Origin: the human T2T-CHM13v2.0 reference genome, Homo sapiens
Assembly: GCF_009914755.1 (NCBI RefSeq)
Contig: NC_060927.1
Length of the DNA: 64,000 nt
Strand: one strand, 5' to 3'
How positions within the stretch are numbered: the first letter of the stretch is position 1; every line of letters starts with the position of its first letter. A program made the position numbers and the translations under genes. Below, piece after piece: positions 20,801-54,500 of this stretch. The notes under the pieces are model-generated. The model was not told where the DNA came from. It made no database searches and saw nothing but the letters and a program-made list of their open reading frames with translations.

Positions 20801-23714
20801 TATTAATTTTCTGTCTTGTTGATCTAATATTGACAGTGGCGTGTTAAATCTCCCACTATTATTGTGTGGGAGTCTAAGTCTTTTTGTAGGTCTCTAAGAA
20901 CCTGCTTTATGAATCTGGGTGCTCCTGTATTGGGTACATATACATTTAGGATAATTAGCTCGTCTTGAATTGATCCCTTTACCATTATGTAATGCTCTTC
21001 TTTGTCTTTTTTGATCTTTGTTGGTTTAAAGTCTGTTTTATCAGAGACTAGGATTGCAACCCCTGTTTTTTTTTTTTTTTTTTTTTTTTGCTTTCCATTT
21101 GCTTTGTAAGTATTCCTCCATCCCTTTAGTTTGAGCCTATGTGTGTCTTTGCATGAGATAGGTTTCCTGAATACAGCACACTGATGGGTCTTGACTCTTT
21201 ATCAAGACCCTTCTTTGCCAGTCTGTGTCTTTTAATTGGGGCATTTAGCCCATTTACATTTAAGGTAAGTATTGTTATGTGTGAATATGATCCTATCATT
21301 ATGAGGATAGCTGGTTATTTTGCCTGCTAGTTGATGCAGTTTCTTCATAGTGTCGATGGTCTTTACAATCTAATATGTTTTTGCAGTGGCTGGTACCAGT
21401 TGTTCCTTTCCATATTTAGTGCTTCCTTCAGGAGCTCTTCTAAGGCAGGCCTGGTGGTGACAAAATCTCTCAGCATTTGCTTGTCTGTAAAGAATTTCAT
21501 TTCTCCTTCACTTAAGAAGCTTAGTTTGGCTAAATATGAAATTCTGAGTAGAAAGTTCTTTTAAGAATATTGAATATTGTCCCCCTCTCTCTTCTGGCTT
21601 GTAGGGTTTCTGCAGAGATCCACAGTTAGTCTGATGGGCTTCCTTTTGTGGGTAACCTGACCTTTCTCTCTGGCTACTCTTAACATTTTTTTCTTCATCT
21701 CAACCTTGGTGAATCTGACAATTATGTGTCTTGGGGTTGCTCTTCTTGAGGAGTATCTCTTTGTGGTGTTCTGTGTATTTCCTAAATTTGAATGTTGGCC
21801 TGCCTTGCTAGATTGGGGAAGTTCTCCTGGACAATATCCTGCAGAGTGTTTTCCAACTTTGTTCCATTCTCCCCGTCACTTTCAGGTACACCAATGAGAT
21901 GTAGATTTGGTCTTTTCACAAAGTCCCATATTTCTTGGAGGCTTTGTTCATTCTTTTTCATTCTTTTTTTCTCTAATCTTGTCATCTTGCTTTATTTCAT
22001 TAAGTTGATCTTCAATCTCTGATATCCTTTCTTCCACATAATCGATTCAGCTATTGATACTTGTGTATGCTTCGCAAAGTTCTTGTGCTGTGTTTTTCAG
22101 CTCCGTCAGCTCATTTGTTTTCTTCTCTAAACTGGTTATTCTAGTTAGAAATTTGTCTAACCTTTTTCCAATGATCTTAGCTTCCTTGCATTAGGTTAGA
22201 ACATGTTCCTTTAGCTCGGAGAAATTTGTCATTACCCACTCTGAAGCCTACTTCTGTCAATTCATCAAACTTATTCTCCATCCAGTTTTGTTCCCTTGCT
22301 GGCAAGGAGTTGTGATCCTTTGAAGTAAAAGAGAAGTTCTGTGTTTTTGGAATTTTCAGTCTTTTTATGCTGGTTTTTCCTCAATCTTTGTGGATTGATC
22401 TACCTTTGGTCTTTGATGTTGGTGACCTTGGGATGGAGTTCTTCTGTGGATGTCCTTTTTGTTCACACTGATGCTATTCCTTGCTGTTTGTTATTTTTCT
22501 TTCTAACAGTCAGGCCCCCTCTGCCTCAGGTCTGCTGGAGATTGCTGGAGGTCCACTCCAGACCCTGTTTACCTGGGTATCACCAATGGAGGCTGCAGAA
22601 CAGCAAAGATTGCTGCCTGTTCCTTCCTCTGGAAGCTTTATCCCAGAGGGGCACTCACCAGATGCCAGCTGAAACTTTCCTGTATGAAGTATCTGTTGAC
22701 TCCTGCTGGGAGGTGTCTCCCAGTCAGGAGGCACAAGGGTCAGTGACCAACTTGAGGAGGCAGTCTGTCCCTTAGTAGAGCTCAAATGCTGTGCTGAAAA
22801 ATCTGCTGCTCTCTTCAGAGCCAGCTGGCAGGAACGTTTCAGTCTGCTGAAGCTGTGCCCACAGCTGCCCCTTCCCCCAAGTGCTCTGTCCCAGGGAGAT
22901 GGGAGTTTTATCTATAAGCCCCTGACTGTGGCTACTGCCTTTGTTTCAGAGAGAAGGAATCTAGAGAGGCAGTCTGGCGACAGTGGCTTTGCCAAGCTGT
23001 TGTGGGCTCCACCCAGTTTGAACTTCCCTGGGGGCTTTGTTTACACTATGAAGGGAAAACTGCCTACTCAAGCCTCAGTAATGGCGGATGCCCCTTGCCC
23101 CCACCAAGCTCCAGCATCCCAGGTCAACTTCAGATTGCTGTGCTGGCCATGAGAATTCCAAGCCAGTGGATCTGAGCTTGTTGGGCTTCGTGGGGATGGG
23201 ATCCACTGAGCTAGACCACTTGGCTCCCTGGCTTCAGCCCCCATCTCAGGGGAGTAAACGATTCTGTCTAGCTGGCATCCCCGGTGCCACTGGGGTATGA
23301 AAAAAAACTCCTGCAGCTAGCTCTGTGTTTGCCCAAACAGCTGCCCAGTTTTGCACTTGAAACCCAGGGCCCTGGTGGCATAGGCATCTGAGGGAATCTT
23401 CTGGTCTGCAGGTTGTGAAGACTGTGGGAAAAGCATAATATCTGGGCTGGAATGCACCATTCCTCATGGCACAGTCCCTCATGACTTCCTTTGGCTGGGG
23501 GAGGGAGTTCCCTGACCCCTTGCACTTCCCAGGTGAGGTGACACCCCACCCTGCTTCAGCTCACCCTCCGTGGGCTGCCCCCACTGTCTAACCAGTCCCA
23601 TTGAGATGAGCCAGATACCTCAGTTGGAAATGCAGAAGTCACCCGCCTTCTGCATTGATCTTGCTGGGAGCTGCAGACCAGATCTGTTCCTATTCAGCCA
23701 TCTTGCCAGTGACC
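17826..23714 (-). mobile_element. Near full-length L1PA7-like LINE-1 lacking its 3'UTR (element B)
   Basis: PA7-type 5'UTR at ~22500-23714, ORF1 fragments (21782-21985), ORF2 fragments including LFADDM (18404-19027); no poly-A or 3' TSD. Confidence 0.92.
20114..20408 (+). mobile_element. AluSc/Sc8-like element inserted in element B
   Basis: Complete dimer; TSD aaattttcctcta / aaattccctctg. Confidence 0.9.
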
Positions 23715-23839
23715 CAACCACCGCTTTTTGGGTAGAAATTATAAAAGCCTGAATGCACTTTTTCTTTTAGTTGGAAAAATGTTTAAGCACCATTGCAAAC
23801 AGTAGCAAATAAACTTTCATAAGAGAATATATTCATTGA

Positions 23840-23960
23840 TAGAGCAAGTACAATAAAAAGTTAATTGTAGAATCTAGGTAGAGAATATACAGATGTGCAT
23901 TATAAATTCTTTCAACTATACTATATGTCTAACAAATTTTCAAAATAAAAACTTGGAAAA
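23840..23960 (+). mobile_element. L1ME-type 3' terminus fragment
   Basis: gttaattgtagaatctaggt...aattctttcaact...ttttcaaaataaaaacttggaaaaa. Confidence 0.6.
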
Positions 23961-25204
23961 AGTTTTTAAGCAGGTTAAATATGACTTAAAATATAAAAGC
24001 ATTAGCAAAATATACACTCTAGTTAAAATTCCATATTAGTAGATAATAAAAAGTACTAATCAATCTTATGAATGCAAAGTTTGAAAAATGCAAAAATAAA
24101 CATATGAACAAAAAATCACTATCATGTTGACTAGCCATTTTATTGCATCCTTTTGTTAAGGATGGAATAATAGCTAGCTATAGGATACCTATAATAAGTA
24201 CAATTAAAACAAAGCATAAAGAAAGGTTAAAACAAAAGAACGAACAAATAAAATATAAAGAAATACCTTCAATAATTCTACCAAAACAGGAAATATTTAA
24301 ATATGTGGCCTTCCTTTGAATGAAAACCAAGAGGGAATGGTTCCCTTTGCCTCTATAGATGTTTCACTGTCGCTTTTTTCTTCTTCTTTAAGCAAGTTAG
24401 GAATCCAATTGTATAAGAAACGAAGGAGTAACTTAAAAGGCTGAAGTTAAAAGCGTTGATTTGCACTAGAGTGAATTTTATGGGCTTTGCTGTTTTCTGA
24501 GTTTTCTCTGCAAGCTTTACTTCTAAGTGCTCTTTGTAAGCCTGAAGAGCAACATCATGCTAAATTTTCATTTCTTAAAGGACATCTCATTTTTTGGATT
24601 TAGGATGTTAGCAATTTGCATACCTATAGCATACTGATCTTCCTGTGCTTAATTCTTCCCAACAATCCAGAAGACTGGGATTATGCCAAATAATAAGGCA
24701 CCATAACAACCAGATGGCTGGTGGAAGACGCAGCCCAGCAGGTCTTTTGCCTACACAATATCACACCACTGCCTAAGGGCTCCCCAGTATAAGAGGCAAT
24801 CTCACCAACAACCTCAACAGAAGAGGCATCCTGCCTGCCTCTCGTTCCTGACCTTGCCACTTGGATATTATAACAGCTAGGTGGGATCAGGCAGCTCAGC
24901 ACCTGTTATTTGGCAGTGGGTGTCTGCAAAATATTTCACTTCTACAATAGGCGGGGGGTATTAAATAAAACCTAGTTCAGGTGTGAGGATAAATGTAACC
25001 TACATCTGCTCACAAATTTTGATGATGCACTGCTGGTGGGAAAAAGCACTAATCATGAACAGATATCATTTGTTGCTTAAAAATAGTCAAAGTATATATT
25101 TAAATAGAACAAGATGATTTCTTAAAACTTGTGAGGATTGAAGTAGTATACAAGTCCTAATAATTATTTTCTGGGCCCAAACTAAAAACATCTATGGTGA
25201 TTTT

Positions 25205-25430
25205 TTTTTTAATGCTAGACACTATGCTAAGTGATTTAGGGGAATTGTTTTATTTGGTTTTCATAACTTTCTTTGTAAGTCCCAATATTATCCCTTTTTA
25301 CAAAGGAGGAGACTGAGGCTCAATGCACCTTAAGAACTGTCTCTGTGACCCTAGCATGTATGTACAGCTAGGGTTTTAATAGGTCTAATCTGACACCCAA
25401 TCCAGTGATTTTCTCCACCCAGCAGTACTG
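25205..25430 (-). mobile_element. MIR
   Basis: attatccctttttacaaaggaggagactgaggctca. Confidence 0.6.
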
Positions 25431-25713
25431 ACTCCAAGAGCGTTGTATTGGGTTACTAAAGTCAAATATGAAGTTGAGACAAATTTGTACCACATATGGA
25501 GTTTGGCAAATATTAAACTCTCTTCTTCTAAATTCTAAAACAGTTAAAGATATTTCTGAAAGAAAATTATATAACATAGTATATTGCTCAAATTTCAGAA
25601 CCTTGAAATGAGTTAAAATCATGGTAGATGCCATATTTGCTTCCTGTTACAATTAAGATTAAAAATAACCCTCTATTATCTATAACTATATAAAATATAC
25701 AGCATATAATTAT

Positions 25714-25790
25714 ATAAAATGAGAAGCACAGATGTTATATAGTAATATTGTTATAATATCCTATTACTAAATCAGTGCTTCTCATTTTAT
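25714..25790. repeat. Inverted repeat / hairpin with perfect 16-bp outer arms
   Basis: ataaaatgagaagcac (25714-25729) is the reverse complement of gtgcttctcattttat (25775-25790); inner tagtaata/tattacta also pair. Confidence 0.85.
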
Positions 25791-26269
25791 TTTTCTTAAT
25801 CTGTTAGGTTTTTCTCCTACCTGATGCTCTTTTTTCCCAACAATTATATTTTCCTAGGCTCCCTGAAGACAGAGAGCAGGAATGCAATACATTAGCAAAT
25901 AACAGTGAGCTCCAGCGCTTCCCCCAACCCCCGCCCCACCATTTTCTGTAAGTTATTTCTGATTCCTTTGATAATTTAAGAAAATAAAAGAAACTTGGAT
26001 CTTATTTCAAAGTTATATCAAAACAATCATTTTAAAGCGGAAACTCCAACATCATAAAAATTACAGATTTTTTTAAAGTATACTAAACCTAATTGAATTT
26101 ATCTTAAATAGGCGTAGTTATGAAGACCAGTATTATGTATATGGAAAAATTGTGAAAAGTTAATACAAGTGTTTTATTTATCCAGAAACTTCTTATCTGG
26201 CAAACTCAGTCTATTCTTGAAGCAACCAGGAAGGTAGAAACAAAGACATTTGATCAATCAAAAAAGAGT

Positions 26270-26575
26270 TCTGGAAGTCACAAACACACATGACCAAGGA
26301 GGCCAAGTTGATGTGGCACCTGAATTATGTGAGTCAACGGGAATGGTGGTGACCAAGGATACGGTATCTAAAGTGAGCAACAGCTACTCAGCACTAGTGG
26401 GGTTTTGCTGAGTAGGACCAAGGTCATAGGATCTTCCAAGTTTCAAACAGAGGCAAAGCTTCCAGATGTCTCATGTGACATTTCATGTTATCTGAAGCAC
26501 CGCACAGGGAAAAAAAAAAAAAAAAAAACTCTACCATCCAAGACCCAACATGTGGATGCCTCTGAACTCTGTGCT
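26270..26575 (+). mobile_element. MER102-like hAT-Charlie remnant
   Basis: cagctactcagc...ggatcttccaagtttcaaacagaggcaaagcttccagat. Confidence 0.5.
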
Positions 26576-27589
26576 AGCTCTACCTCCTACCTATGCATGG
26601 ACACCTAGGAGATTTGAGTGGCTCTCCCAAGGTCAGACAGTTAGAAAGGGACAGAACTGGAAAGAGAACTTAGGTCTCCTGTCAACCTCATGCTCTCCAT
26701 ATTTATATCACAGCCCCCAGAACAGACAACCGATGAATTTTCTTGGCAGCTCTTCCTCCAGCACATCACAGCAAGCCCACCGGTGGGCCATCCTCCGGGA
26801 AATGGGTAGAAAGCAAGTAGTGAATGTGGCTGACACTGCACCAAGCTGTTCTGTGTCCTTCAGTCAATCATGCCTGCATTATTTTTCCCTTTGAAATGAC
26901 AGTTTATCCTCAGAAATAGGATTTTATCAACAATGAAGGGGATTCTACTTAGGTGTTTTCACCGTTAAGCAAATTGAGAACTAGTCTCGGGAAAAGAATC
27001 TGTTTAGTGTCATTGAAACACTGCCCAAAGGAAAAAAAAAAAAAAAACAGAAACAAAAACTAAGATTAATATTAAGCTATAAAGATGGCATTTTTCTTCT
27101 CAAAGTACTTTTCAAACTCTGTAATCTCATTACAAGTCAATGAAAATTCATGGCTCTGATGCATCTTGCATGACAGGATTTCTAAGCACTTACAGAGCCA
27201 TAAATTCCCATCAAGAACATCTCACAACCTGAAATTCTCCAAAGGAAACTCTTCCGGTTCCTCACTCGAATTGGGCCTTATATTCCCATCACCAGTCTTT
27301 GGCCTCGTCCAGAGCAAACCCATGAACTCATGGACTAGATATATTATTTTTCCATGTACAGTAAATTCAAAATTAAGAAAAACAAAGTCTATGCTCATAT
27401 CATCCAGAATCATCTTTTATAACATCTTTGAGAAACTCAAATAAAGCTTGTACAAACTCCACTTTGCTGTAATTTTCTGACTCTTGATAATGTTACTATT
27501 ATTGAAGTATCAAGAGTAATAGGGAAATAGGTTACCTTCTTTAAGTTAGTGTAAATATTTAGTAGCAAAAACACACGTTGTTTAATACA

Positions 27590-27750
27590 TGTCAGACATT
27601 TTCATTGGCACTCTATGAGGGAGCTACCATTATCAGCATCATACAGATGAGAAACTGAGGCACAGGGAAGTGAAGTAAGTGGCCCAAGTGCAGTGCCAGG
27701 ACTTGAATCCAGGGAGTCTGTCAGAGTTCAAATACTTGATAGACCACACT
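27590..27750 (-). mobile_element. MIR
   Basis: atacagatgagaaactgaggcacagggaagtgaagtaagtggcccaag. Confidence 0.7.
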
Positions 27751-28269
27751 GCCTTATGGAGAGGCATCGGTCCTTCTTTAGTAAGGGGATCTGGGCTTTC
27801 TCTTATCTGCTGTGGTAAAAAGTTCCCTGTGAGGGTGTTGGAGTCCTAGAAGTCCACATAGGTTCATGTACTGTCCCTGAGGCTCTCCTTAGAGGTCACA
27901 TCCACCATAAGGATGGGCGATTCAGGGTCATATTTCATCAGGGCCCCTGAGAGCTTCTTCTTAATCCCAAGGCCATTTAAGGCACTGGGGAAAGCTTTCC
28001 ACAACGGAAATAAGTCTGCTTCTGAACTGAAGAGGAGGAATTATCTACCTACTCTCAAGAATATTCCTTTCCATCTATAAATAGGATTCTGCAGAGATAT
28101 GTGTGGGAAGGTTTGGAAATAAAAGAGGCAGGAGCAAGCACAGGGCCCCCTCAGTCCAGCAGGCTGCCCAAGACCCCCTGCATATTCCCGCTTATGGGCT
28201 TAGGAGAATGGGGGAAGGAGGTTGTAAAGCATCATTCTGAAAAGGGTCAAGCCAGATTTAAGTCATCAT

Positions 28270-28450
28270 TTATTTTAGCAGGCTCTTTCATTTTATCCTC
28301 CTGGTAATCCCTTGAGGTTGATGTTATTATCATTTGACACATGAAGAAATTGAGGTTAAAATTAGCTAAGCTACTTGCCCAAGATCAAGCCTCTTGGTAA
28401 AAGAGAGCAAGAAAGTAAAACCTAAGATCTATGTGAACTAGTCCAGTGCT
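28270..28450 (-). mobile_element. MIR
   Basis: catttgacacatgaagaaattgagg...ctacttgcccaagatca. Confidence 0.6.
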
Positions 28451-28773
28451 CTGTATGAGCAGGAGGGAAAAACAGAAGCCCAAATGCCCTAGATGTCAAC
28501 CATCAGTGAAAAATCAAAACTGATAGAGTCTATGGGTTTAGAAGGTCTTGTCCGAGGACTCTCTTTATTTTGAAATGTGCATTTACATTGCCTATATGGC
28601 TCTATGAAATGGTCTTCATCTGTATTCAGAGAGAAGCAGAGAAAATAAAAATATTGGCGCAGAGTATGTTGGGACTAGAAATTATGGCATTAAGGGAGAT
28701 AGGGTACTGGTTCTAGAGTTTCTCAGGGAACCTACCCCTCACCCTCCAAGTTCTCAGATTTATAAACTGTTAC

Positions 28774-29405
28774 TGATACAGGAGCTAAAAAGAAATTATT
28801 GAGGCAGATAGGGAGGACAACAGACTCCTCAGTGGAATTTCCCTTTTAACAAAAGGCAGCCCCAAAATCATTTCTTTTCTAACAAAGAGCAGCCTGAAAA
28901 ATCAAGCTACAGACATAGAAAAGCAAGCTGAAAGCTTGCATGGGGGAATGCCGGCAGCTGTGCCAATAGAAAAGGGCTACCTGGAAGACAGGCATGTTCA
29001 ACATGGAGACTCCATCTTCTCTTTTCTTTGTCACCACATGTACAGTAAGAAACAGGCAACATGGAGCTCGCTAGGTAGAGAACCCATCTGCATGATAAAA
29101 GATTAGAGTGGGGGTGGCCAGATTTTCACGCACTATGCAAATGACACACCTGGTCCGACCAATCTTTCATGCTCTATATAAATCAGACACCGTCTCCTCA
29201 AGCTCACCTATAAAACCTTCTACACTTCACTGCGGAAGTGGCAACCCATTTTCTCTGAGACCCCTTTCTGTAGCAAGAGAGCTTTTCTCTTTCTTTTGCC
29301 TATTACATTTCTGCTCTGAACCTCACTCTTGTGTGTCTGCATTCTAGTTTTCCATGGTTGTGAGACAATAAATCCCGAGTATTTAACCCAGACAACAATG
29401 CTGCT
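28774..29405 (+). mobile_element. MER61-family ERV1 solo LTR
   Basis: Starts tgatacaggagctaaaaagaaattatt; contains ATGCAAAT and TATAAAA; ends ccagacaacaatgctgct. Confidence 0.8.
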
Positions 29406-29639
29406 ACCCTATCACCCCCAAAACCAGAGCAGAAGCCAAACTCAGGCATCAGATCACCAATGACAAACTCAAAGTGCCAGAGAGCATCTACCTCAGCCTG
29501 TGCCCGGCCCAACAAAGTGAAAAGAGAAATCAGAGGTTCAGAAACTCAAGGTCAAATAGAAAGTCTCTGTAACAAAGACTAGAATCTACTCTTGCTATTA
29601 GTTTGGGATTCACTCCTCTGCTTTCTACTTTCTGGTTAT

Positions 29640-29885
29640 AGTATAGGCATTGCAACTATGGTTTACAGCTCTGGGTCAAATCAACGAAGGTTCAAGTTGT
29701 GATGCTAATTTGTGACCTTGAACAAGTTTTTTAACCTGGTATGCACATTGGTTTCCTCATTAGCAAAATGGGGATAGTAATGGTGCCTACCTAATAGAGT
29801 TATGAAGCATAGAAGCTCGAGTTATTATGCATATAAACACTTCGTACAGAATCCGACCCAAGGATGTGTTCAATAAATGTTAGCA
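29640..29885 (+). mobile_element. MIR
   Basis: tgtgaccttgaacaagtt...ggtttcctcattagcaaaatgggatagtaatggtgcctacct...caataaatgttagc. Confidence 0.75.
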
Positions 29886-30229
29886 GTTGATTATGATGCT
29901 CATGAAAGTACATTATAAACTGAAGTGCCATTTGGATGTTACTTATTACCACAGCCTAATATTCCTAACAAGGTCCTATACTATATAAATCTATTCTCCC
30001 TTACATAACATAATAGCATTTAGGCAGTTACAAGATCTATAAAGCCATCTTGTTTCTCATCATTTTTAATACAAGAAATGCAAACTACATACATAATCCT
30101 TTCTAATATTCTTACGTATCACAATCCAGACCCAGATAGTAAATATGTCTTTGCACAAAGCTACAGATTAGCCAATAAGACAAATAGCCCTCTCTGACAA
30201 CAGTATATATTTAAAATACAATTGAAAGA

Positions 30230-31025
30230 TGTAGTGTAATAAAAATATATATTTGGTCTTTGTCCCAGTGTTCCTGGCACAGAGCTCCTAACTCCTTTGG
30301 AATTTCCTCAGCAGTAGGAATATCTTTTGTGATTTACAATGAGACACTTAGACCATACCTGCATTTATGCTGATGAGATGACTCATGGCAAGGCTCCCTC
30401 AATTGCTTCAGGATGAGTGCTAGTCACAGAAAGTCCAAACATGTTTAGAGAGTGGGAACTATCAACCCTATCCTCTAGTCGATGGGGATGAAAGACAAAC
30501 TGGAAATTGAGTTCCATCATATGGCCAGTCACTTCAAAAATCACATTTACATTATGAAACCTCAATAAAAATTCAGAAAACTAAGGCTTGTAGAATGTCC
30601 CTCTTGGTGACCACATGTGTTTGCAAGGCTGGCACACCTGGAGAGGGCATGGAAGTGCTGAGCCTCTCCCTCAGCCTCGTATCTTACCCTTTGCGTCTCT
30701 TCCACTTGGCTTTCCCTGAGTTGTACCCTTTATAATAAAACTGTTATCATAACTACAGTTGTTTCTTGACTTCTGTGAGCTGTTGTAGCAAATTATCAAA
30801 CCTGACGGCGTAATTTCATGAAAACTTCCAAATTTGTCACCAGCTGGGCAGAAGTGCAGAGGGCTTGGGGGCATTTGGGATTGAGAGCTGGCATGTGAAG
30901 TAGGGGTGGTCTTGTGGGACTCAGCCCTTCAACCTGTGGGGTCTGTGCTAGCTCTGGGTAGTTACTGTCTGAAGGGAATTGAACTGTAAGACTCCAGCTG
31001 GTATCAGAAAGCTGCTGTTGGGATG
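30230..31025 (+). mobile_element. MER21-family LTR
   Basis: tgtagtgtaataaaaatatatatttggtctttgtccc...ttcctggcacagagctcctaa...ggtcttgtgggactcagcccttcaacctgtggggtctg. Confidence 0.75.
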
Positions 31026-31539
31026 ACACAGAAGATAGTTGCTTTAATTTTGAGCCTTCATTTACGTGTTGGTAACTGAGCTAGTAAGAGCTCTCTAGCT
31101 CTACTTCCCCTTGTGATTAATAGATTCCCCCCTGTGGAGCAAGAAAAGAAAGGTTGTCTGCACCCTCTATCCTCAGGGTGTGTCTGAGGTTATGGAGATA
31201 CAAGGCAGTCACCATGATAAAAATCTAAAGCTGAATTTTAAAAGCAGCCTCAATGACATACTAAACATTTGACTTGTTTTTGTCACCCTTGGTTAGGACA
31301 AACCCTTCCAATTGTAAATTGAGAAAGATGTGTTTGCTTCAAAGGCATTGCACAGAAATACAGGTTAGCTGCAGATCCAGGTAATTATAAGGCAGCATGG
31401 GGGTGGGACAGAATCCTTGAGTTCCAATCTTGGTTCTGCCTCAGAGTTTAAGTGGCCTCACCAAGGTCATACAGCCAAGGAGTTTCTATTTCTTCATTCA
31501 TACAGTGAGGAAGTTGCATGAATTTTGAAAGTGTGTTCC

Positions 31540-31698
31540 AGGAGCCACTTGTGTCAAACCCAGCTGGTATGCTTAGAAAGGCAGTCTATGTTGCCCCACA
31601 TCTGATGACGCAAAATATCTGGGGTTTTGCACCCTGGAATCTACATTACTGATAAGCCTTTTGGGCGATTCTGATGCCCAGTAAAAGTAACAACTGCG
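31540..31698. mobile_element. MER5-like hAT remnant
   Basis: ccctggaatctacatt...gcgattctgatgcccagtaaaag. Confidence 0.45.
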
Positions 31699-44500: not shown

Positions 44501-45479
44501 TGTATTAGTAATTCTCTAATTGCTACAAACTTGGAGGCTTAAGAGAGAATAGATTTATCTTGCAATTCTATAGGTCAGAAGTCTGAAAGTGGCTGTCATA
44601 GCTAAAACCAAGCTGTTGGCAGGGCTGCATTCCTTCTGGAGCTGTAAGGGAGACCCTGCTCCTTGCCTTGTCCAGCTTCTAGAAGCCACCCACATCCCTT
44701 GGCTTCTTGCAATAGCCCATTCCACCCATTCCTCTTCTACTCTCCCCTTTCTTGAACTCTGACTCTCCTGCCTCGCTTTTACAAGAACACTTGTTGTAAT
44801 CAAGTAACTCCAGTTTTCTAAGAGCTAGTTTTATTTTTTGCTCTCTTTTCTCTTTCCTTTTTCTCCTCTTCCTGACTTCCTACTTAGCTCTTTAGAAATG
44901 CAATTATAACCTTTTACCTTCATCTCACCAGACACTCCCTACAGGACAAGCTTATCTAACTGTGCTTACTTAAAAGCTCCACAGCAGAACTCTCTCCCAC
45001 CAGGAGATTGCCTTGAAAAGACAATAGTCAATTTACAACCAAAAGTACAACTTAGTTTTGCCTGGATGGTGCCAGCTTGAGCACCCAGGAGATAAGGCAC
45101 CAAAGCAAGTCACAGGGATCCTCACCTCTTCATTCCCTCTCCTATGTGCCATTCATGCCACCTCCCTTTTTAAAAGCACCTGCCTTCTGCTCCAAAAGGA
45201 AGGTGGCACCCTTACGGCAGGAAGCCTGTGCTACTTCTTTATACCAGACCTCATTCTTGTCAATTGGATTCTGCAAGCAGTGAGCCAATGAACTTGCATT
45301 TTGGTTACATTGTGACTACAATGGGCCTGCCTCAATAATTCAGGATAATCTCTACATGTCAAGATTCTTAATTAAATCACATCTGCAAAGTCCCATTTGC
45401 CAGGAAAGGTAACATATCCACAGGTCCAGAGATTACAATGTGAGTATCTTCGATGAGCCATTATTCATTCTCTACCACA
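44501..45479 (-). mobile_element. MLT1C/D (MaLR LTR) interrupted by an ERV1 LTR
   Basis: tgtattagt...ggcagggctgcattccttctggag...aatcacatctgcaaagtccc...ctaccaca. Confidence 0.8.
44795..45309 (+). mobile_element. MER4-group ERV1 solo LTR (LTR24/36/48-like) nested in MLT1
   Basis: tgtaatc...ggttaca ends; 4-bp TSD ttgt at 44791-44794 and 45310-45313. Confidence 0.75.
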
Positions 45480-45483
45480 CTCA

Positions 45484-45641
45484 GGAAGAGAAAGCGAAAG
45501 GAAGGGAGAAAGAAAGAAAGGAAGAAAGAAAGAAAGAAAGGAAGAAAGAAAGAGAGAGAGAAAGAAAGAAAGAGAGAGGAAGAAAGAAAGGGAGAAAGAA
45601 AGAAAGAAAGGGAAAAAGAAAGAAAGGAAGGGAGAAAGAAA
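45484..45641 (+). repeat. (GAAA)n/GA-rich polypurine tract
   Basis: About 155 nt of nearly pure A/G. Confidence 0.95.
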
Positions 45642-47144
45642 TAGCAATAACTGGCAAGTATTCTATGTTTCTAAAGGTTGGTGGCGTCTACTTGTTTTAA
45701 TGGAATCAACCACCTCAATTCCTTTAGACAGTCCTTCAACACAGTTACTTAATAATTGTTCAGCTGAGTCAAAACAGTCAATTCAGAAATTATTTAACAA
45801 GATGTTGCCTAAGAAACATCAAATAATTACTCCTATTGCCTTTTCCCCCTTCATACTTTTTCTCTGGCTGTTTCTACGTTACGTAGAACAAAGAATCAAA
45901 AGCAAAATTTTGGCAGATCCCATAAACATGATTAAAAATGGCCACTGTTTATTTAGAGAATAAGAGATTTTATCTATCCAGCATAATTGCTCAATAAGTC
46001 TCAGCTAGTATTATTATAGCCATCCCTATGATTCTTAACTTGAAATCTGCCAACTTATATGTAATTCACAGTGAACTTGTTAAATATTCAGACTTCTTTC
46101 AAATTATCCTGATAATTTTTTTCTGAAGCCAAGATCCTCCACCAAGCCTCACACTGGCTTTCAAATTAGGATGTATTCTACATTCAGAAAGCACAACAAA
46201 ACTCTCTCCTGCTTCTTCAGACCCTAGACTCCATAGTTGATGGAGTATTTCATTATGTTGCCTGCAGTTCTTGACAAGATGTGGGAGAAAAAGAAGGAGG
46301 AAGACACTAGGAAATAATTGAAATGAGAAATGTCACCTTGAGTTTAGTGTCAGTGAGATTATACTCAGCCTTCCCTGGAAACAGACAGTGGAAGTAAAAT
46401 GTCATTTACAAAAAATTACCAATCCTGTGCCTGAACAAATCCATCTTTCATTAATATTTGATTTTTTTTGTTCTTGTATTGATTGCCATGACATGGCTGT
46501 CACCCAGCTGAGTCCCATAACTTCTATTGCAGGCAATTTCCTTACAGAATTACTTTCCTGAAAGGGTTGGACGTTATAACAGCCTTGTCAAACTGCACAC
46601 ATCTACAGCATTAGGTAGTGACTGTTCAATAATTAACTTACTAGGCTGGACTGTTGGTACCATTTGAAAAGTTCCTGTTTACTGTCCATGCTTCTTGAGG
46701 CCAACGGCCAAGAGTAGAGGCATCATGATTGAACCATGTGTAGCAAAATACCAGGTTATGTGAGCTGTTATAATTGATTCTAAATGTCTTAAAGAAAGTG
46801 AGTTCAAAGATGAGAATAGAGCTGAGAAGAACCATTATCCATTAGTCATTGGATCAAATGATCCATTAACAACTTTTGTCAATACAGAATTTGTTGCATC
46901 CTCATTTGTAATTAGAAAATTTTCTTAGTTATGCTGTTAGCATGATACAATTTATATACTATTCTTCACTGCATGATAAGGAATCAACAGAATAGGAACT
47001 AGGGCTAGAAGGACTAAAACTTTCTGAAGACAGCTCCGTTTCAAGTTTGCTTTGCCTCATGGCAAATCTGCATGAAACAGAACAACCGTGCTCATTTTAA
47101 GTAGTCATTCCAGGGTAGTATTTCTGGTTGTATACCATTTCTCC

Positions 47145-47665
47145 AGTCACAGCAGTTGCAAAACATGATTGCAAATTTGACTCCTCCCACTAAGAGTTCA
47201 ACTCTCTTCCCCTTGAATCTGGGCAGACTTAAATTGCTTCAACTATATAGCACAGTGGAAGTGACGCCGTGTGCCTAAGTCATGCAGCTTCTACCCTGGT
47301 CACTGGAACACTCGGAGTCCTGAGCTACTGTGTCAGAAGTCTAACCACACATATACTATCATGCTGTGGAAAAGCCCAAGAAATTGAGGAGGTCACATGT
47401 GGGCACTGTGTTTAATAGTGTTCCAGCTGAGGTGAGCTGTTGAGTCATCCCAGATTTCATAGGTAAATGAGAAAACTTCCAGATGGTTCCATAACCAAGC
47501 CGTTAAGCCTTCTCAGTTGAGGCTCCAGATGAGGTATGTAGAACATGGACTAGCCTTCCCTATTGTACTCTGTTCAAATTCTTGATCTGCACACATTTTG
47601 AGCATAATTAAGTAGTTATTTTATACAACTATTAGAGTGATTTGCTTTACAGAAATAAATTGGAA
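47145..47665 (+). mobile_element. MLT1G/H-like MaLR LTR
   Basis: cttccccttgaatctgggcagac...ggaagtgacg...cagcttctaccctggtcactggaacac. Confidence 0.7.
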
Positions 47666-48409
47666 TATTTATCCCATCTCAATTTAAAAGTGCAAATTAA
47701 GGAGATTGTTTTTTCCAACTCTAGTCTATAGTATCCTTCCCTTCCCTGGTGGTTTGCTGCTCATGTCGACCATCTCAGGCAAGGAATATACAGGGTGGAG
47801 ACTCAGAAGAGAAATTAAAGGGAGCAGGAAGACAGTTTGCACTCACTCCAAAACAGAATTAGTTATGGGTATTCAGAAGAATCATTGAAAGAGCTAAAAA
47901 TACCTTGTGGTGGGACTGGAGGTAAGAGTACATGGCATTTCACAATTGAGAACAAAATTGTACAAAATGTAAAAAATTGAGAAGCTATCTCAAAGGACTA
48001 GAACTACTCACAAACAACTTCAAAAAATCTACCTGGGTTTTTTATTTTGAACTGAAACTTGTTTCTTACATCAACTTTTCAATCAGCAATGCAAAAGTCC
48101 CTTTCAGTTTGGTATTTGCATGGGTTATGGGTACATGAATTGCTACACAATGTTAAATGGCCCCATAAAATATTACTTGTCTGTTGCAAAGCCATGATGG
48201 AAATTCATGAAGACTTGCTGCTTACCTGCCATGTTTCCTATGCAAAGCACCTGGATCAATGATTGGAAAATCTCTGGAGGGGTGAAAAAATCATGTTCTA
48301 ATTTGGATTATGTCACTGCCCTGCTGAAAATCTTCAGAGACCTCTCACTGCCTAATTACTACAGTTTAATTCTTGTGTCTTACTGTTCTTGGCATTTTAT
48401 CATCTTCTA

Positions 48410-48660
48410 ACTTACTTAGTCATAGTTATTTGTTCTATTTAATATTTTTAAAATGACTATGTGTCAGGTACCATTATTAGGACAACATTGGTGACTAGTG
48501 ACAGTAGATCCCTTCCCTGATCAAGCTAACATTCTTAGTGGGGGGTGTCAGAATCTTCAGTAAATAAAAAATTTTATAATCTTGATTAGTGCCATAAAGA
48601 AAATAAGGTGATGTGACAGGGTAATGGATAGGGTAATCAGAAAAGTTCTGAGGTTATAAG
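48410..48660 (-). mobile_element. L2 3' fragment
   Basis: atgactatgtgtcaggtaccatt...aagctaacattcttagtgggg. Confidence 0.6.
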
Positions 48661-49394
48661 TGTAATTTTCAACTTTTTATTAAGAAAATTTTCAAAGATT
48701 CAGGAAAATAGAATATTTTGCTATGTACGTTCCTATTTTTATTAAATATTTTAAAGCAATTTACAGATATTTTACTCCTTAAATTCTGTAATCTTAGACA
48801 AGGGTATTTCCCCACATAATTACGGTTCTATTAACACGTGGGACTCAATTGATAATTTCTCAGTGTCAAATTCTCACACCATATTCAATCTAGTAGTTCC
48901 CTCCAAATATTTTATAACCACTCTGTTCAAGGATCCAAATAAGATCCAATCTTTACAACAGGTTATACCTTTTGTTCTTCAAGAATCCTGCTACTGTCTT
49001 TTCTCCCCATGATACTGACTAGTTAAAATACTGGGCTAGCTTTGAATTTGCCCAGTGGTTTCCCATGGTACCATTTAACCTGTTCTTTCTTCTGTATTTT
49101 ATATACACTGGAAGTTAGGTATGGCAGCTTGATTTGACTCAAGTTAAAAATTTTTGGAAAGACTATTTGATAGGTAATTCTGTGCACTTCATGTTATATC
49201 ACCTCATAAAGCATATCACATTCAAATGCTCCTCCATCAACCTTAAACCTTCCAGGTTAAGGTGTCACAGACTGATCCTGCCTTTAACAAGTAACATTTC
49301 CTGACTTGAAAGCAGAAAGTATTACATATGGAGAGATAGTATGACACCACACAACTATCCAATTCTTTATCAGTCTTTCATTGAAATGGTTTAA

Positions 49395-49716
49395 TTTTTT
49401 GTTTGTTTGTTTTTGGTTTTGTTTGTTTTTGTTTTTGGAGATGGAGTCCTGCTCTCTTATCAGGCTGGAGTGCAGGGGCATGATCTTGGTTCACTGCAAC
49501 TTCCGCCTCCTGGATTCAAGGGATTCCCATGCCTCAGCCTCCCGAGCAACTGGGGCTATAGGCACCCACCACCACTCCCAGCTAATTTTTTGTATTTTAG
49601 TAGAGACAGGGTTTCACCATATTGGTCAGGATGGTCTCAATCTCTTGACCTCATAATTCTCCCACCTCAGTTCCCCAAAGTGCTGGGATTACAGGCGTGA
49701 GCCATTGCACCCGGCC
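49395..49716 (-). mobile_element. AluSc-like with (TTTG)n tail
   Basis: Antisense dimer with ggatggtctcaatctcttgacctc. Confidence 0.88.
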
Positions 49717-49960
49717 AGTTGATGATCTTTGACTGACTCAGTTATTCCATTAAAGAATTCAAAGGAGCAATTTTTCTAATGCCTTTATTTCTTCTATGTT
49801 TATTAGCCAACAGTCTGCTGTTAAAAACAAAAATCAAAAAAGAGCCTTCTCTCATCAAATGGGGTTATTTGATCACCCTGTCATGCAGTTTGCAGAGAAA
49901 AGGCAGATACTTACCTCTGCCTTTAAATCCCTGATGGATTTTTAAACTGTCATTATTTGC

Positions 49961-50212
<252 letters not shown>

Positions 50213-50287
50213 AATTGTCATTATTTGCTTTTAATGTGGATTGCTTTTATGAGAATAACTATGAGCTCATGGATTTTATATAGTAGT

Positions 50288-50752
50288 TGTCACGCATGTC
50301 CGTGTGAAGAGAGTCCACCAACAGGCTTTGTGTGAGCAACAAGGCTGTTTATTTCACCTGGGTGCAGGCAGGCTGAGTCCAAAAAAGGAGTCAGCAAAGG
50401 GTGGTGGGATTATCATTAGTTCTTATAGGTTTTGGGATAGGCGGTGGAGTTAGGAGCAATGTTTTGTGGGCAGGGGGTGGATCTCACAGAGTACATTCTC
50501 AAGGGTGGGGAGAATTACAAAGAACCTTCTTAAGGGTGCGGGAGATTACAAAGAACCTTCTTAAGGGTCGGGGAGATTACGAAGAACATTGATCAGTTAG
50601 GGTGGGGCAGAAACAAATCACAATGGTGGAACGTCATCAGTTAAAGCTATTTTCACTTCTTTTGTGGACTTTCAGTTGCTTCAGGCCACCTGGATGTATA
50701 TGTGCAGGTCACAGGGGATATGATGGTTTAGCTTGGGCTCAGAGGCCTTACA
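50288..50752 (-). mobile_element. HERV-H solo LTR (LTR7B-like)
   Basis: tgtcacgcatgtccgtgtgaagagag...gcttgggctcagaggccttaca; 5-bp TSD gtagt / gtaat. Confidence 0.9.
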
Positions 50753-51207
50753 GTAATTATGCTTTAATCAATTATAGTCATTCTTACTGTGATTTGGATT
50801 ATAACAACTGTGGATATTATGAGCACCTTCAAACTGACTGTGCCTTTTTAAGTGACCATATTAGTCTTTAAGTATTCTTTGCTCTCTAGAACAACAGAAT
50901 ATCCCAACACCCAGGGCATTTTCTTCATCACACCTGAAAATCAGCCATTTCTTTGAATCCAAATTCTTTTCATGATAAATGATATGTAGAGAACAAAATC
51001 TAAATGTCAGGAGTGATCACTGGTCCTGGGAAGCTATTTCTTGGTTTTCTCAATGTGAATCTAAGATATTTATCTTATAAAAATGGTAAAGTTTTTTTTT
51101 CCATTCCAAGATGGCCAAATAAGAACAGCTCTGGACTGCAGCTCCCAGCATGATCGACTCAGAAGACGGGTGATTTCTGCATTTCCAACTGAGGCACCTG
51201 GTTCATT

Positions 51208-51534
51208 TCATTGGGACTGGTTGGACAGTAGGTGCAGCCTATGGAGGACAAGCTGAAGCAGGGCGGGGTGTCGCCTCACCCAGGAAGCACAGGGGTCAGG
51301 AGATTTCCCTTTCCTGGCCAAGGAAAGCCATGACAGACTGTACCTGGAAAAATAGGACACTCTTACCCAAATACTGCACTTTTCCCAAGATCTTAGCAAC
51401 TGGCAGACCAGGAAATTCTCTCCCGTGCCTGGCTCAGCAGATGCCACACCCATGGAGCCTTGCTCACTGCTAGCACAGCAGTCTGAGATCAACCTGCAAG
51501 GCTGCAGTCTGGCTGGGGGAGGGGCATCTGCCAT
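51208..51534 (-). CDS. L1 antisense ORF0 homolog, open, 108 aa
   Basis: MADAPPPARLQPCRLISDCCASSEQGSMGVASAEPG... resembles L1 ORF0 (MAGAPPPASLPPCSLISDCCAS...); ATG in strong Kozak context gcaATGg; no evidence of expression. Confidence 0.6.
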   Translation of the reverse strand: MADAPPPARLQPCRLISDCCASSEQGSMGVASAEPGTGENFLVCQLLRSWEKCSIWVRVSYFSRYSLSWLSLARKGKSPDPCASWVRRHPALLQLVLHRLHLLSNQSQ

Positions 51535-54500
51535 TGCTGAGGCTTGAGTAGGTAAACAAAGCCACAGGGAAGCTCGAACTGGGCAGAGCCCACCACAGTA
51601 CAGCAAGGCCTACTGCCTCTATAGACTCCACCTCTGTGGGCAGAGCATAGCTGAACAAAAGGCAGCAGAAACTTCTGCAGACTTAAACATCCCTGTCTGA
51701 CAGCTCTGAAGAGAGCAGTGGTTCTCTCAGCACAGCAATGGAAATCTGAGAACAGACAGGCTGCCTCCTCAAGTGGGTCCCTGGCCCCCATGTAGCCTAA
51801 CTGGGAGGCACCTCCCAATAGGGGCTGACAGACAAGTCATACAAGTAGGTGTCCCTCTGGGACAAAGCTTCCAGAGGAAGGATCAGGCAGCTATATTTGC
51901 TGTTCTGCAATATTTGCTGTTCTGCAGCCTCCGCTGGTGATACCCAGGCAAACAGGGTCTGGAGTGGACCTCCAGCAAACTCCAACAGACCAGAGCGGAG
52001 GGACCTGACTGTTAGAAGGAAAACTAACAACAGAAAGAAATAGCATCGACATCAACTAAAAGGACATCCACACCAAAACCCCATCTGTAGGTCACCAACA
52101 TCAAAGACCAAAGGTAGATAAAACCACAAAGATGGAGAGAAACCAGAGCAGAAAAGCTGAAAGCTCTAAAAAACAGAGTGCCTCTTCTCCTCCAAAGGAT
52201 CGCAGCTCCTCACCAGCAATGGAACAAAGCTGGATGGAGAATGACTGACAAGTTGACAGAAGTAGGGTTCAGAAAGCCAGTAATAACAAACTTCTCCAAG
52301 CTAAAGGAGCGTGTTCTAACCATTGCAAGGAAGCTAAAAACCTTGAAAAAAGGTTAGATGAATGGCTAACTAGAATAAACAGTGTAGAGAAGACCTTAAA
52401 TTACCTGATGGAGCTGAAAACCATGGCACGAGAACTTCGTGATGCATGCACAAGCTTCAATAGCTGACTCGATCAAGTGGAAGAAAGGATATCCATGATT
52501 GAAGATCAAATGAATGAAATAAAGTGAGAAGACAAGTTTAGAGAAAACAAGAGTAAAAAGAAATGAACAAAGCCTCCAAGAAATATGGGACTATGTGAAA
52601 AAACCAAATCTATGTTTGATGGGTATACCTGAAAGTGATGGGGAGAATGGAGCCAAGTTGGAAAACACTCTTCAGGGTATTATCCAGGAGAACTTCCCCA
52701 ACCTAGCTTCCTATTCAACATTCAAATTCAGGAAATCCAGGCCAACATTCAAATTCAGGAAATACGAGAACACTACCAAGATACTCCTTGAGAACAGCAA
52801 CCCCAAGACACATAATTGTCAGATTCACCAAAGTTGAAATGAAGGAAAAACTGTTAGGGGCAGCCAGAGAGAAAGGTTGGGTTACCCACAAAGGGAAGCC
52901 CATCAGACTAACAGCAGATCTCTCCACAGACAGCCTACAAGCCAGAAGAGAGTGGGGGCCAATATTCAACATGCTTAAAGTAAAGAATTTTCAACCCAGA
53001 ATTTCATATCCAGCCAAAATAAGCCCCATAAGTGAAGGAGAAATAAAATCCTTTACAGACAAACAAATGCTGAGAGATTTTTGTCACCAGTAAGCCCGCC
53101 TTACCAGAGCTCCTAAAGGAAGCATTAAACATGGAAAGGAACAACCAATACCAGCCACTGCAAAAATATGCCAAATTGTGAAGATCATTGATGCTATGAA
53201 GAAACTGCATCAATTAACGGGCAAAATAACCAGCTAACATCATAATGACAGGATCAAATACACACATAACAATATTAACCTTCAATGTACATGGGCTAAA
53301 TGACCAATTAAAAGACACAGACTGGCAAAGATGGGTCTTGATAAAGAGTCAACACCCATCCATGTGCTGTATTCAGGAGACCTATCTCATGTGCAAAGAC
53401 ACACACATAGGCTCAAAATAAAGGGATGGAGAAAGATCTAGCAAGTAAATGGAAAGCAAAAAAAGCAGGGGTTGCAATCCTCGTCTCTGATAAAACAGAC
53501 TTTAAACCAACAAAGATCAAAAGAGACAAAGAAGGCCATTATATAATGGTAAAGGGTTCAATTCAACAAGAAGAGCTAAGTATCCTAAATATATGTGCAT
53601 CCAACACAGGAGCACCCAGATTCATAAAGCAAGTCCTCAGAGACCTACAAAGAGATGTAGACTCCCACACAATAATAATGGGAGACTTTAATACCCACTG
53701 TCAATATTAGACAGAACAACGAGGCAGAAGGTTAACAAGGATATCCAGGACTTGAACTGAGCTCTGCACCAAGTGGACCTAAGAAAGTTCTACAGAACTC
53801 TCCACCCCAAATCAACAGAATATGCATTCTTCTCAATACCACATCACACTTATTCTAAAATTGACCACATAATTGGAAGTAAAGCACTCCTCAGCAAATG
53901 TAAAATAACAGAAATCACAACGAACTGTCTCTCAGACCACAGTGCAATCATATTAGAAATCAGGATTAAGAAACTCACTCAAAACCACACAACTACATGG
54001 AAACTGAACAACCTGCTCCTGAATGACTACTGGGTACATGATGAAATGAAGGCAGACATAAAGATGTTCTTTGAAACCAATGAGAACAAAGACACAACGT
54101 ACCAGAATCTCTGGGACACATTTAAAGCAATGTGTAGAGGGAAATTTACAGCACTAAATGCCCACAAGAGAAAGCAGGAAGGATCTAAAATTGACACCCT
54201 AACATCACAATTAAAAGAAGTAGAGAAGCAAGAGCAAACAAATTCAAAAGCTAGCAGAAGACAAGAAATAACTAAGATCAGAGCAGAACCGAAGGAGATA
54301 GTGACAAACCCTTCAAAAAAATTGGCGAATCCAGGAGCTCATTTTTCGAAAAGATCAACAAAATTGATAGATCGCTAGCAAGACTAATAAAGAGGAGAGA
54401 AAAGTTAAATAGATGCAATAAAAAATGATGAAGGGGATATCACCACCGATCCCACAGAAATACAAACTACCATCAGAGAATACTATAAACACCTCTATGC

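What the first reader, a model, noticed from the sequence alone, without database searches (positions are those of the whole stretch)
21183..53360. Identical template-switch inverted insertion in two L1s of different subfamilies (B and C)
Seen in sequence: the recalled EN consensus ctggcaaATTGGataaagagtcaagacccatc (LANWIKSQDP) reads ctggcaaAGATGGGTCTTGataaagagtcaacacccatc in C (53322-53360). The insert is the reverse complement of the downstream caagacccatc, creating a hairpin and a +7 frameshift. B carries the same lesion on the minus strand (21183-21213: gatgggtcttga-ctcttta-tcaagacccttc). Both also share the nearby variant acctatctcat. B has a PA7-type and C a PA6-type 5'UTR. Inference: a rare replication template-switch mutation arose once and was copied about 32 kb between inverted elements by gene conversion.
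Basis: partly seen in the sequence, partly recalled or inferred. Interest (0 to 1): 0.82.

Follow-up and report, generated by a model that had tools for sequence, protein, structure and literature searches.

The report
Shared hairpin scar in two L1s
Two dead, oppositely oriented L1 retrotransposons of different subfamilies, 32 kb apart on human chromosome 3, carry the same inverted 12-base scar found nowhere else in this genome, most likely because a short patch of DNA was copied from one to the other long ago.

Summary
C (+, 53330-53360) and B (-, 21213-21183) both replace the normal TTGGA with a 12-nt reverse complement of the TCAAGACCCATC that lies 7 nt downstream (net +7), with identical breakpoints. 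All 58 other L1PA copies fetched are wild type. In T2T-CHM13, four lesion patterns (25-31 nt, up to 2 or 3 mismatches) hit only B and C. The wild-type 32-mer hits 10,594 sites.

B and C are not sister copies. At 124 subfamily-diagnostic columns, B has the older-group state at 114 and C the younger-group state at 122, on both sides of the lesion. C has its own target-site duplication.

This excludes a sub-lineage marker and a segmental duplication. Independent recurrence is very unlikely (about 6e-5). Best reading (0.7): one template-switch mutation, then an ancient short-tract (under 268 bp) ectopic gene conversion.

The conversion is inferred by elimination. Identity in the tract is not raised, and no ape or monkey orthologues could be checked. 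The PA7 and PA6 names are untested. Both processes are known, so interest is modest.

The parts
17825..23707 (-). L1 copy B. The 5' end is present. The 3' end is lost at 17825. It carries an Alu at 20114-20404 and an internal deletion of about 400 bp at 17982/17985. It belongs to the older subfamily group (G3).
   Evidence: Searches give the extent. G3 state at 114 of 124 diagnostic columns; longest open frame 231 aa.
21183..21213 (-). Lesion hairpin in B. Inverted insert 21213-21202 (GAAGGGTCTTGA), loop 21201-21195 (TAAAGAG), template arm 21194-21183 (TCAAGACCCATC).
   Evidence: DNA fold -9.7 kcal/mol, z -4.10.
51101..57291 (+). L1 copy C. Full length with an A-rich tail. It belongs to a younger subfamily group (G2).
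   Evidence: G2 state at 122 of 124 diagnostic columns. Pfam L1 ORF1 domains at 52707-53093; longest open frame 205 aa.
53330..53360 (+). Lesion hairpin in C. Inverted insert 53330-53341 (GATGGGTCTTGA), loop 53342-53348 (TAAAGAG), template arm 53349-53360 (TCAACACCCATC).
   Evidence: DNA fold -7.9 kcal/mol, z -2.44.
53171..53437 (+). Largest possible converted tract in C. It is bounded by the diagnostic columns 53170 (and 53237) and 53438, where B and C each keep their own subfamily state. The corresponding stretch in B is 21110-21373.
53383..53383 (+). T shared by C (53383) and B (21160), 23 nt downstream of the hairpin. The majority base is C.
   Evidence: 4 of 58 other copies have T, and none of these are among the 14 G3 or 5 G2 copies.
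51077..51094 (+). 5' copy of the putative target-site duplication of C (ATAAAAATGGTAAAGTTT).
   Evidence: 16 of 18 bases match the 3' copy.
57292..57309 (+). 3' copy of the putative target-site duplication of C (ATAAAAATTATAAAGTTT).

Best explanation
A single short template-switch mutation occurred in one of two neighbouring, head-to-head inverted L1 copies, or in the progenitor of the younger one. A polymerase left its template after CTGGCAAA, copied 12 nt from the complementary strand of the sequence just downstream, and returned. This replaced TTGGA with GATGGGTCTTGA and created a 12-bp stem with a 7-nt loop about 85 nt into ORF2.

The lesion was later copied into the other L1, 32 kb away, by a non-reciprocal, short-tract (under 268 bp) ectopic gene conversion. 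No crossover was involved. Both elements kept their own subfamily sequence on either side.

The transfer is old. Each copy has since acquired its own point mutation inside the hairpin and several more nearby.

Shown: the lesion, its identical breakpoints, its uniqueness in the genome, the different subfamily of the two hosts, and the bounds of the tract. Inferred: single origin, gene conversion as the means of transfer, and the age. The direction of transfer is unknown.
For: (1) Same lesion and same breakpoints in B and C. 0 of 58 other copies have it.

(2) Genome-wide, the 28-mer at up to 2 mismatches, two 31-mers at up to 3 mismatches and a 25-mer at up to 3 mismatches hit only B and C, with controls at 0. 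The wild-type 32-mer at up to 3 mismatches hits 10,594 sites.

(3) By my own arithmetic, a second independent hit falling on a site-bearing L1 within 32 kb of the first has a probability of about 6e-5. This uses 0.22 neighbours per site if sites are evenly spread, times about 3 for clustering. The clustering factor comes from 11 of 99 adjacent gaps of 32 kb or less among the first 100 listed sites, against 3.7 expected.

(4) B and C are independent insertions of different subfamilies. At the 124 diagnostic columns, B has the G3 state in 114, the G2 state in 2 and another state in 8. C has the G2 state in 122, the G3 state in 0 and another state in 2. This holds on both sides of the lesion. Neither copy is among the 40 scored best matches of the other. 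They share only 6 rare bases in 3,655 columns, against a median of 3 for 1,769 other pairs. C has its own 16-of-18 target-site duplication, and the 5' flanks of B and C are unrelated.

(5) The lesion fits the four-point template-switch model completely, with 12 of 12 templated bases in the inferred original (model read in passages of PMC5453318). It turns an unstructured stretch (-1.3 kcal/mol) into a hairpin (-7.9 and -9.7 kcal/mol).

(6) The lesion lies in a 201-bp block without subfamily differences (53237-53438, fourth largest of 35 gaps). Local identity would therefore have been high when both copies were young.

(7) Gene conversion between dispersed transposable-element copies, dependent on distance and identity, is established (passages of PMC6598467).
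Against: Excluding the lesion, B and C are no more alike in the candidate tract than other pairs. They differ at 10 of 125 columns. Their tract-to-rest distance ratio is 0.38 against a median of 0.48, with 39% of 1,770 pairs at or below it. There is therefore no independent identity signal.

Only one further shared rare base lies near the lesion (T at 53383). Given 5 such bases in 3,655 columns, the chance of one within 44 bp is about 0.12 (my arithmetic).

No diagnostic marker lies inside the tract, so no mosaic pattern can be shown and the direction cannot be read.

For Alu, raised conversion rates are reported within 10 kb (PMC6598467, passage). The distance here is 32 kb, and the elements are now only 78-85% identical.

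No orthologous sequences from other primates could be examined.
Confidence: 0.7

Rival explanations
1. Independent recurrence. The same template switch happened twice, once in B and once in C, because the site is a quasi-palindrome hotspot (TTGGA against TCAA) that tends to give the same product.
For: Templated quasi-palindrome mutations are known to recur at hotspots (my recollection of the bacterial and yeast literature; the abstract of bioRxiv 10.1101/2023.08.09.552703 was seen in the listing). Both copies started from the same wild-type sequence. There is no independent identity signal for conversion.
Against: Only 2 of about 10,596 site-bearing copies carry the lesion, and they are neighbours at 32 kb. 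The chance is about 6e-5 by my arithmetic. I see no microhomology that would fix the first switch point, reading. Both switch points are nevertheless identical. B and C are inverted, so the event would have had to occur on opposite strands relative to a passing replication fork.
Confidence: 0.07
2. RNA- or cDNA-templated patch. A transcript of the lesion-bearing copy was reverse transcribed, and the cDNA was used to repair a break in the other copy. The sequence outcome is the same as DNA-templated conversion.
For: The outcome is indistinguishable from the best explanation with the data in hand. That L1 cDNA can take part in repair of L1 sequences is recalled from the literature and was not checked here.
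Against: Nothing requires it. It does not explain why the recipient is the nearest neighbour, whereas physical proximity favours DNA-to-DNA conversion. Both copies are degraded.
Confidence: 0.1
3. Common descent. B and C both descend from one lesion-bearing element, either by retrotransposition of a defective source (a sub-lineage marker) or by an inverted segmental duplication.
For: They share the lesion and the T at 53383.
Against: No other copy in the genome carries the lesion. At 124 diagnostic columns B and C follow different subfamilies, including two 5'UTR indel blocks of 50 and 18 columns. They share 6 rare bases against a median of 3 for random pairs. C has its own target-site duplication, and the 5' flanks are unrelated. 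There is no inverted homology outside the L1 bodies. The +7 frameshift near the start of ORF2 would disable an autonomous source (established knowledge of L1 cis-preference, recalled).
Confidence: 0.05
4. Crossover-based exchange. An inversion of the 28-kb spacer by recombination between the inverted L1s, or a double crossover, carried the lesion across.
For: Inverted repeats at this spacing can recombine (general knowledge, recalled).
Against: A single crossover would leave chimeric elements and would separate C's two target-site copies. C keeps both, and neither element switches subfamily along the 3.8 kb examined. A double crossover within 268 bp cannot be told apart from gene conversion.
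Confidence: 0.05

Closest known systems
Short template-switch mutations (four-point model of Loytynoja and Goldman 2017, PMC5453318; classic quasi-palindrome correction of Ripley)
   Same: A short segment is replaced in one step by the reverse complement of nearby sequence. This makes a perfect inverted repeat, or hairpin, and looks like a cluster of substitutions plus an indel. Here TTGGA becomes 12 nt complementary to TCAAGACCCATC.
   Different: The event lies in a repeat, a class of sequence that the published human-chimpanzee scan masked (passage of PMC5453318). The product is seen in two paralogous copies instead of one locus.
Non-allelic (ectopic) gene conversion between dispersed transposable elements (reviewed in PMC6598467; Alu examples by Kass 1995 and by Aleshin and Zhi 2010 are cited there)
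   Same: A derived character is shared by two nearby paralogous repeat copies whose flanks keep separate identities. The transfer is non-reciprocal, short-tract, and between copies on the same chromosome.
   Different: The partners are L1s of different subfamilies, inverted and 32 kb apart, whereas the Alu signal is reported within 10 kb. The marker is a genome-unique structural lesion, not subfamily-diagnostic bases. No rise of identity in the tract is left, so the event is ancient.
L1 subfamily-diagnostic indels (sub-lineage markers)
   Same: It is an indel at a fixed position of the L1 sequence, shared by more than one copy.
   Different: Only two copies out of about 10,596 carry it, and they belong to different subfamilies. 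A marker would be found in many unlinked copies of one subfamily.

Membership tests
Template-switch mutation (four-point model) | The new segment is the exact reverse complement of a nearby segment. | tested here: met
   Insert GATGGGTCTTGA against template TCAAGACCCATC. It is now 11 of 12 in each copy, and the mismatched base differs between B and C, so the original was 12 of 12.
Template-switch mutation (four-point model) | The ancestral state is known, and one event explains all the differences. | tested here: met
   58 of 58 other copies and 10,594 genome sites carry TTGGA or a near variant. Replacing TTGGA with the 12-mer accounts for the whole +7 difference.
Template-switch mutation (classic quasi-palindrome correction) | A near-perfect inverted repeat was already present. 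| tested here: inconclusive
   The wild type has only TTG(G)A opposite TCAA. It folds at -1.3 kcal/mol, no better than shuffles.
Ectopic gene conversion between repeats | A derived character is shared by two paralogues and is absent from the closest relatives of each. | tested here: met
   0 of 14 G3 copies, 0 of 14 G2/G2b copies and 0 of 58 copies overall carry the lesion. No other site in the genome carries it.
Ectopic gene conversion between repeats | Flanking markers on both sides keep each copy's own identity (a bounded tract with no crossover). | tested here: met
   At diagnostic columns 53170 and 53438, B keeps the G3 state and C the G2 state; at 53237 C keeps the G2 state and B has a private T (neither state). 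Overall, B has the G3 state at 114 of 124 and C the G2 state at 122 of 124. C's target-site duplication is intact.
Ectopic gene conversion between repeats | Identity between the partners is raised inside the tract. | tested here: not met
   10 of 125 columns differ. The ratio to the rest is 0.38 against a median of 0.48, at the 39th percentile of 1,770 pairs. This is compatible only with an ancient event.
Ectopic gene conversion between repeats | Orthologous loci show the state before and after the event. | not testable with these tools
   No primate genomes are held. The genome search offers only this assembly for the window.
   No Dfam or RepeatMasker library is on hand. What is shown is that B sits in an older group and C in the next younger group of a ladder of five or more steps.
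Inverted segmental duplication | Homology continues into the flanks of both copies. | tested here: not met
   There are no inverted matches beyond the L1 bodies. The 5' flanks are unrelated.

The most novel reading that the evidence does not exclude
The lesion was made by the L1 reverse transcriptase itself, through a fold-back during the integration of C. The integration intermediate, or the freshly integrated C, then patched the older neighbour B at about the same time. A new L1 insertion would in that case convert an old L1 32 kb away as part of, or just after, its own integration.

The only hint is timing. The private changes of B and C inside the tract (about 3% each) are as many as other copies have collected there since they inserted. 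The transfer could therefore be as old as C.
Probability: 0.07. Interest if true: 0.6.

Novelty: new member of a known kind. Interest (0 to 1): 0.35.

Why it matters
Ectopic gene conversion between dispersed repeats is usually inferred statistically, from shared point variants that can also arise in parallel. Here a complex, genome-unique structural scar acts as a barcode. It makes one ancient L1-to-L1 transfer visible. The transfer ran between different subfamilies in inverted orientation, over 32 kb, with a tract under 268 bp and no crossover.

The same logic could be turned into a genome-wide count of conversion events between repeats as a function of distance, orientation and divergence: look for unique template-switch or other complex lesions shared by neighbouring repeat copies.

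For this locus there is no sign of function. Both elements are dead, and no gene is annotated in the window.

Tried and rejected
(1) A 20-mer of the lesion at up to 3 mismatches is uninformative. It gave 289 hits against 448 for the reversed control. Only the 0- and 1-mismatch hits (C and B) are meaningful. This left the 3' 2 kb of the elements and the first 400 bp of the 5'UTR without outgroups.

(2) Splitting the fetched copies by which query found them gave only 12 'diagnostic' columns, because both sets are subfamily mixtures. This was replaced by grouping on informative columns.

(3) GCAAAG (A at 53396), which looked like a second shared variant, is the ordinary state of the older subfamilies. 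It is no evidence.

(4) The idea that the lesion sits in the longest block of identity between the subfamilies was rejected. The 201-bp block is the fourth largest of 35.

(5) Pfam found nothing at E up to 0.001 in three open-frame pieces taken from the ORF2 region: two from C (53761-54378, 54409-54945) and one from B (20824-21198). Only ORF1 of C matched. The statement that the lesion lies in the endonuclease part of ORF2 therefore rests on its position about 85 nt after the ORF2 ATG and on recalled knowledge.

(6) The third sequence folded was a wrong stretch of L006, from a mistaken coordinate, and is to be ignored. The wild-type control is.

(8) A long-range template switch between B and C as the origin of the inverted segment was considered and dropped. 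Homologous pairing between the copies would copy the sense sequence, so it has no advantage over a local switch and would mark only one copy.
Full report
**The observation**

Read on its sense strand, copy C (+) has CTGGCAAA GATGGGTCTTGA TAAAGAG TCAACACCCATC at 53322-53360. Copy B (-) has CTGGCAAA GAAGGGTCTTGA TAAAGAG TCAAGACCCATC at 21221-21183.

I fetched 29 other L1PA copies with C as query and aligned them. 29 of 29 read CTGGCAAA TTGG ATAAAGAGTCAAGACCCATC or a one-base variant. With 29 more copies fetched with B as query, the seven extra alignment columns are filled in B and C and in 0 of 58 others.

The change is best described as TTGGA replaced by a 12-mer that is the reverse complement of TCAAGACCCATC, which starts 7 nt further on. 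The net change is +7. Each copy now shows 11 of 12 complementarity. B has changed a base in the insert (T to A) and C a base in the template arm (G to C). The original was therefore a perfect 12-bp stem, and both copies have mutated since.

As single-stranded DNA the stretch folds at -7.9 kcal/mol in C (z -2.44) and -9.7 kcal/mol in B (z -4.10). The wild type folds at -1.3 kcal/mol (z +0.86). The third sequence was a wrong stretch and is to be ignored.

**The hosts**

A self-comparison of the window shows three L1PA-like copies.
- A (-, 9741-13650) is 5'-truncated, with a 7-bp target-site duplication GGGCCTC.
- B (-, 17825-23707) has its 5' end. It carries an Alu at 20114-20404 and an internal deletion of about 400 bp, and has lost its 3' end.
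- C (+, 51101-57291) is full length, with an A-rich tail and a 16-of-18 target-site duplication at 51077-51094 and 57292-57309.

B and C lie head to head, and their lesions are 32 kb apart. They align over their whole length at 77.5-84.5% identity. That is no closer than A is to either of them (85-87%).

Pfam finds the two L1 ORF1 domains at 52707-53093 (PF17490 at 9.4e-31, PF02994 at 3.2e-23). It finds nothing in the three open-frame pieces tried from the ORF2 region, two from C and one from B. Both elements are long dead, with longest stop-free frames of 205 aa in C and 231 aa in B.

The lesion starts 85 nt after the ORF2 ATG of C (53245). By recalled knowledge of L1 this is in the endonuclease domain. 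Only B and C span this L1 position in the window, and no wild-type site is present.

**Is it a sub-lineage marker or a hotspot?**

In the whole T2T-CHM13 assembly, four lesion patterns match only B and C:
- the 28-mer at up to 2 mismatches;
- the 31-mer covering the left junction at up to 3 mismatches;
- the 31-mer of the hairpin at up to 3 mismatches;
- the central 25-mer at up to 3 mismatches.

The reversed-pattern controls gave 0. A 20-mer at up to 3 mismatches is mere noise, with 289 hits against 448 for the control. The wild-type 32-mer at up to 3 mismatches matches 10,594 sites.

So 2 of about 10,596 site-bearing copies carry the lesion, and they are neighbours. Even spacing would give 0.22 other sites within 32 kb either side of a given site. 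Among the first 100 sites listed, 11 of 99 adjacent gaps are 32 kb or less, against 3.7 expected, which is about threefold clustering. The chance that a second independent hit falls on such a neighbour is then about 6e-5 (my arithmetic).

One caveat applies. At about 10% divergence, these patterns would each catch roughly half of any old lesion-bearing copies. A few very degraded carriers cannot be excluded.

**Are B and C sister copies?**

They are not. Neither is among the 40 scored best matches of the other. C's best matches are 88-90% identical and B's are mostly 87-90%, and the two lists do not overlap.

In a 61-row alignment of about 3.8 kb, B and C share 6 rare bases (10% or less of the others) in 3,655 well-occupied columns. 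One of the six belongs to the lesion. The median for 1,769 other pairs is 3, the mean 9.5 and the 95th percentile 38.

The 58 outgroup copies form a ladder of subfamilies. I took the 14 copies at the old end (G3) and the 14 copies of the next two steps (G2 and G2b). 124 columns separate them, with at least 11 of 14 copies agreeing on each side. The results are in the table.

| Copy | G3 state | G2 state | Neither |
|---|---|---|---|
| B | 114 | 2 | 8 |
| C | 0 | 122 | 2 |

The columns are distributed as follows: 88 in the 5'UTR (many of them belonging to two indel blocks of 50 and 18 columns), 23 between 52000 and the lesion, and 13 downstream.

The names PA7 and PA6 could not be tested. C differs from the majority of its group at 6.6% of columns, as do typical members of either group at about 6-7%. 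Both are therefore tens of millions of years old. That age is a rough inference from recalled neutral rates.

The flanks of B and C show no homology. C's two target-site copies are still in place, so there has been no net inversion with a breakpoint in C.

**The tract**

The nearest diagnostic columns are 53170 (B in the G3 state, C in the G2 state) and 53237 (C in the G2 state, B with a private base) upstream, and 53438 (B in the G3 state, C in the G2 state) downstream. Whatever was transferred is therefore shorter than 268 bp, and no diagnostic marker lies inside it.

The 201-bp block without subfamily differences is the fourth largest of 35.

Inside 53304-53437, B and C differ at 10 of 125 columns. 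The ratio of this distance to their distance elsewhere is 0.38, against a median of 0.48 for all pairs, and 39% of 1,770 pairs are at or below it. There is thus no independent signal of raised identity.

By my reading of the alignment, seven of the eight differences are a private change in one copy against the common state; the eighth (53379, G in C, A in B) is a site that varies among the subfamilies, so it may not be private. This fits a common tract that has since diverged. It is equally what unrelated copies would show here.

One further shared rare base lies 23 nt beyond the hairpin: T at C 53383 = B 21160. It is present in 4 of 58 others, none of them in G3 or G2. The chance of such a neighbour is about 0.12 (my arithmetic). 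The GCAAAG variant is an ordinary old-subfamily state.

The event is therefore old. With about 4 private changes in C's tract, it dates back at least about a quarter of C's age, and possibly all of it (Poisson bounds, my inference).

**Mechanism**

The lesion fits the four-point template-switch model, in which one fragment is replaced by the reverse complement of a nearby fragment (passages of PMC5453318). The classic requirement of a pre-existing near-palindrome is met only weakly, by TTG(G)A opposite TCAA.

A single origin followed by non-reciprocal transfer between the two neighbours is the only reading that accounts for all of the following:
- identical breakpoints;
- uniqueness in the genome;
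- proximity;
- separate subfamily identity on both sides.

Gene conversion between dispersed elements is established and depends on distance and identity. Raised rates for Alu within 10 kb are cited in passages of PMC6598467. Here the distance is 32 kb, which makes the event rare but not strange.

Templating by cDNA, or a double crossover, would leave the same sequence and cannot be told apart. Independent recurrence, common descent and segmental duplication are each contradicted by the results above.

**Literature seen**

- PMC5453318: abstract and passages.
- PMC6598467: passages.
- All other papers: search listings and abstract starts only.
- I searched four times for the combination of template switching or gene conversion with L1. 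The 49 papers listed, of 1,486 that held the terms, included no report of a template-switch lesion shared by two L1 copies; I read listings only. This is not proof that none exists.

**Verdict**

It is a clean individual instance of two known processes, a template-switch mutation and ectopic gene conversion between repeats, in dead elements with no sign of function. Interest is modest (0.35). It is a new member of a known kind.

Noticed in passing
window 16634-17825: B's 3' end is missing. At 17824/17825 it abuts an older L1 fragment of opposite orientation (16634-17824, +, about 71-73% identical to the L1PA copies). The two are tail to tail, and both are cut at nearly the same L1 position (equivalent to C 56850-56864). 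This looks like a deletion of the centre of a quasi-palindrome formed by two convergent L1 3' ends.
   Followed up: partly
window 9731-13657: Copy A (-, a third and younger subfamily group) is 5'-truncated at 13650, equivalent to C 53384. That is 24 nt downstream of the position where B and C carry the hairpin. Its 7-bp target-site duplication GGGCCTC lies at 13651-13657 and 9731-9737. This is probably coincidence. A does not cover the lesion site.
   Followed up: partly
window 20114-20404 and 17982-17985: B carries an Alu insertion (20114-20404). It also has an internal deletion of about 400 bp relative to A and C at 17982/17985.
   Followed up: no
window 58368-60211 and 1-353: There are further L1 3'-end fragments. 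One (+) lies at 58368-58594 and 59617-60211, split by about 1 kb of other sequence. Another lies at 1-353.
   Followed up: no
window 53303: C has a private 1-nt deletion 27 nt upstream of the lesion (AATG-ACCAATT against AATGC[C/T]CCAATT in the others). Its ORF2 frame is therefore broken independently of the +7 lesion.
   Followed up: no
window 21070-21095: B has an expanded A run, about 25 A where the other copies have 7-8, some 100 nt downstream of the lesion.
   Followed up: no
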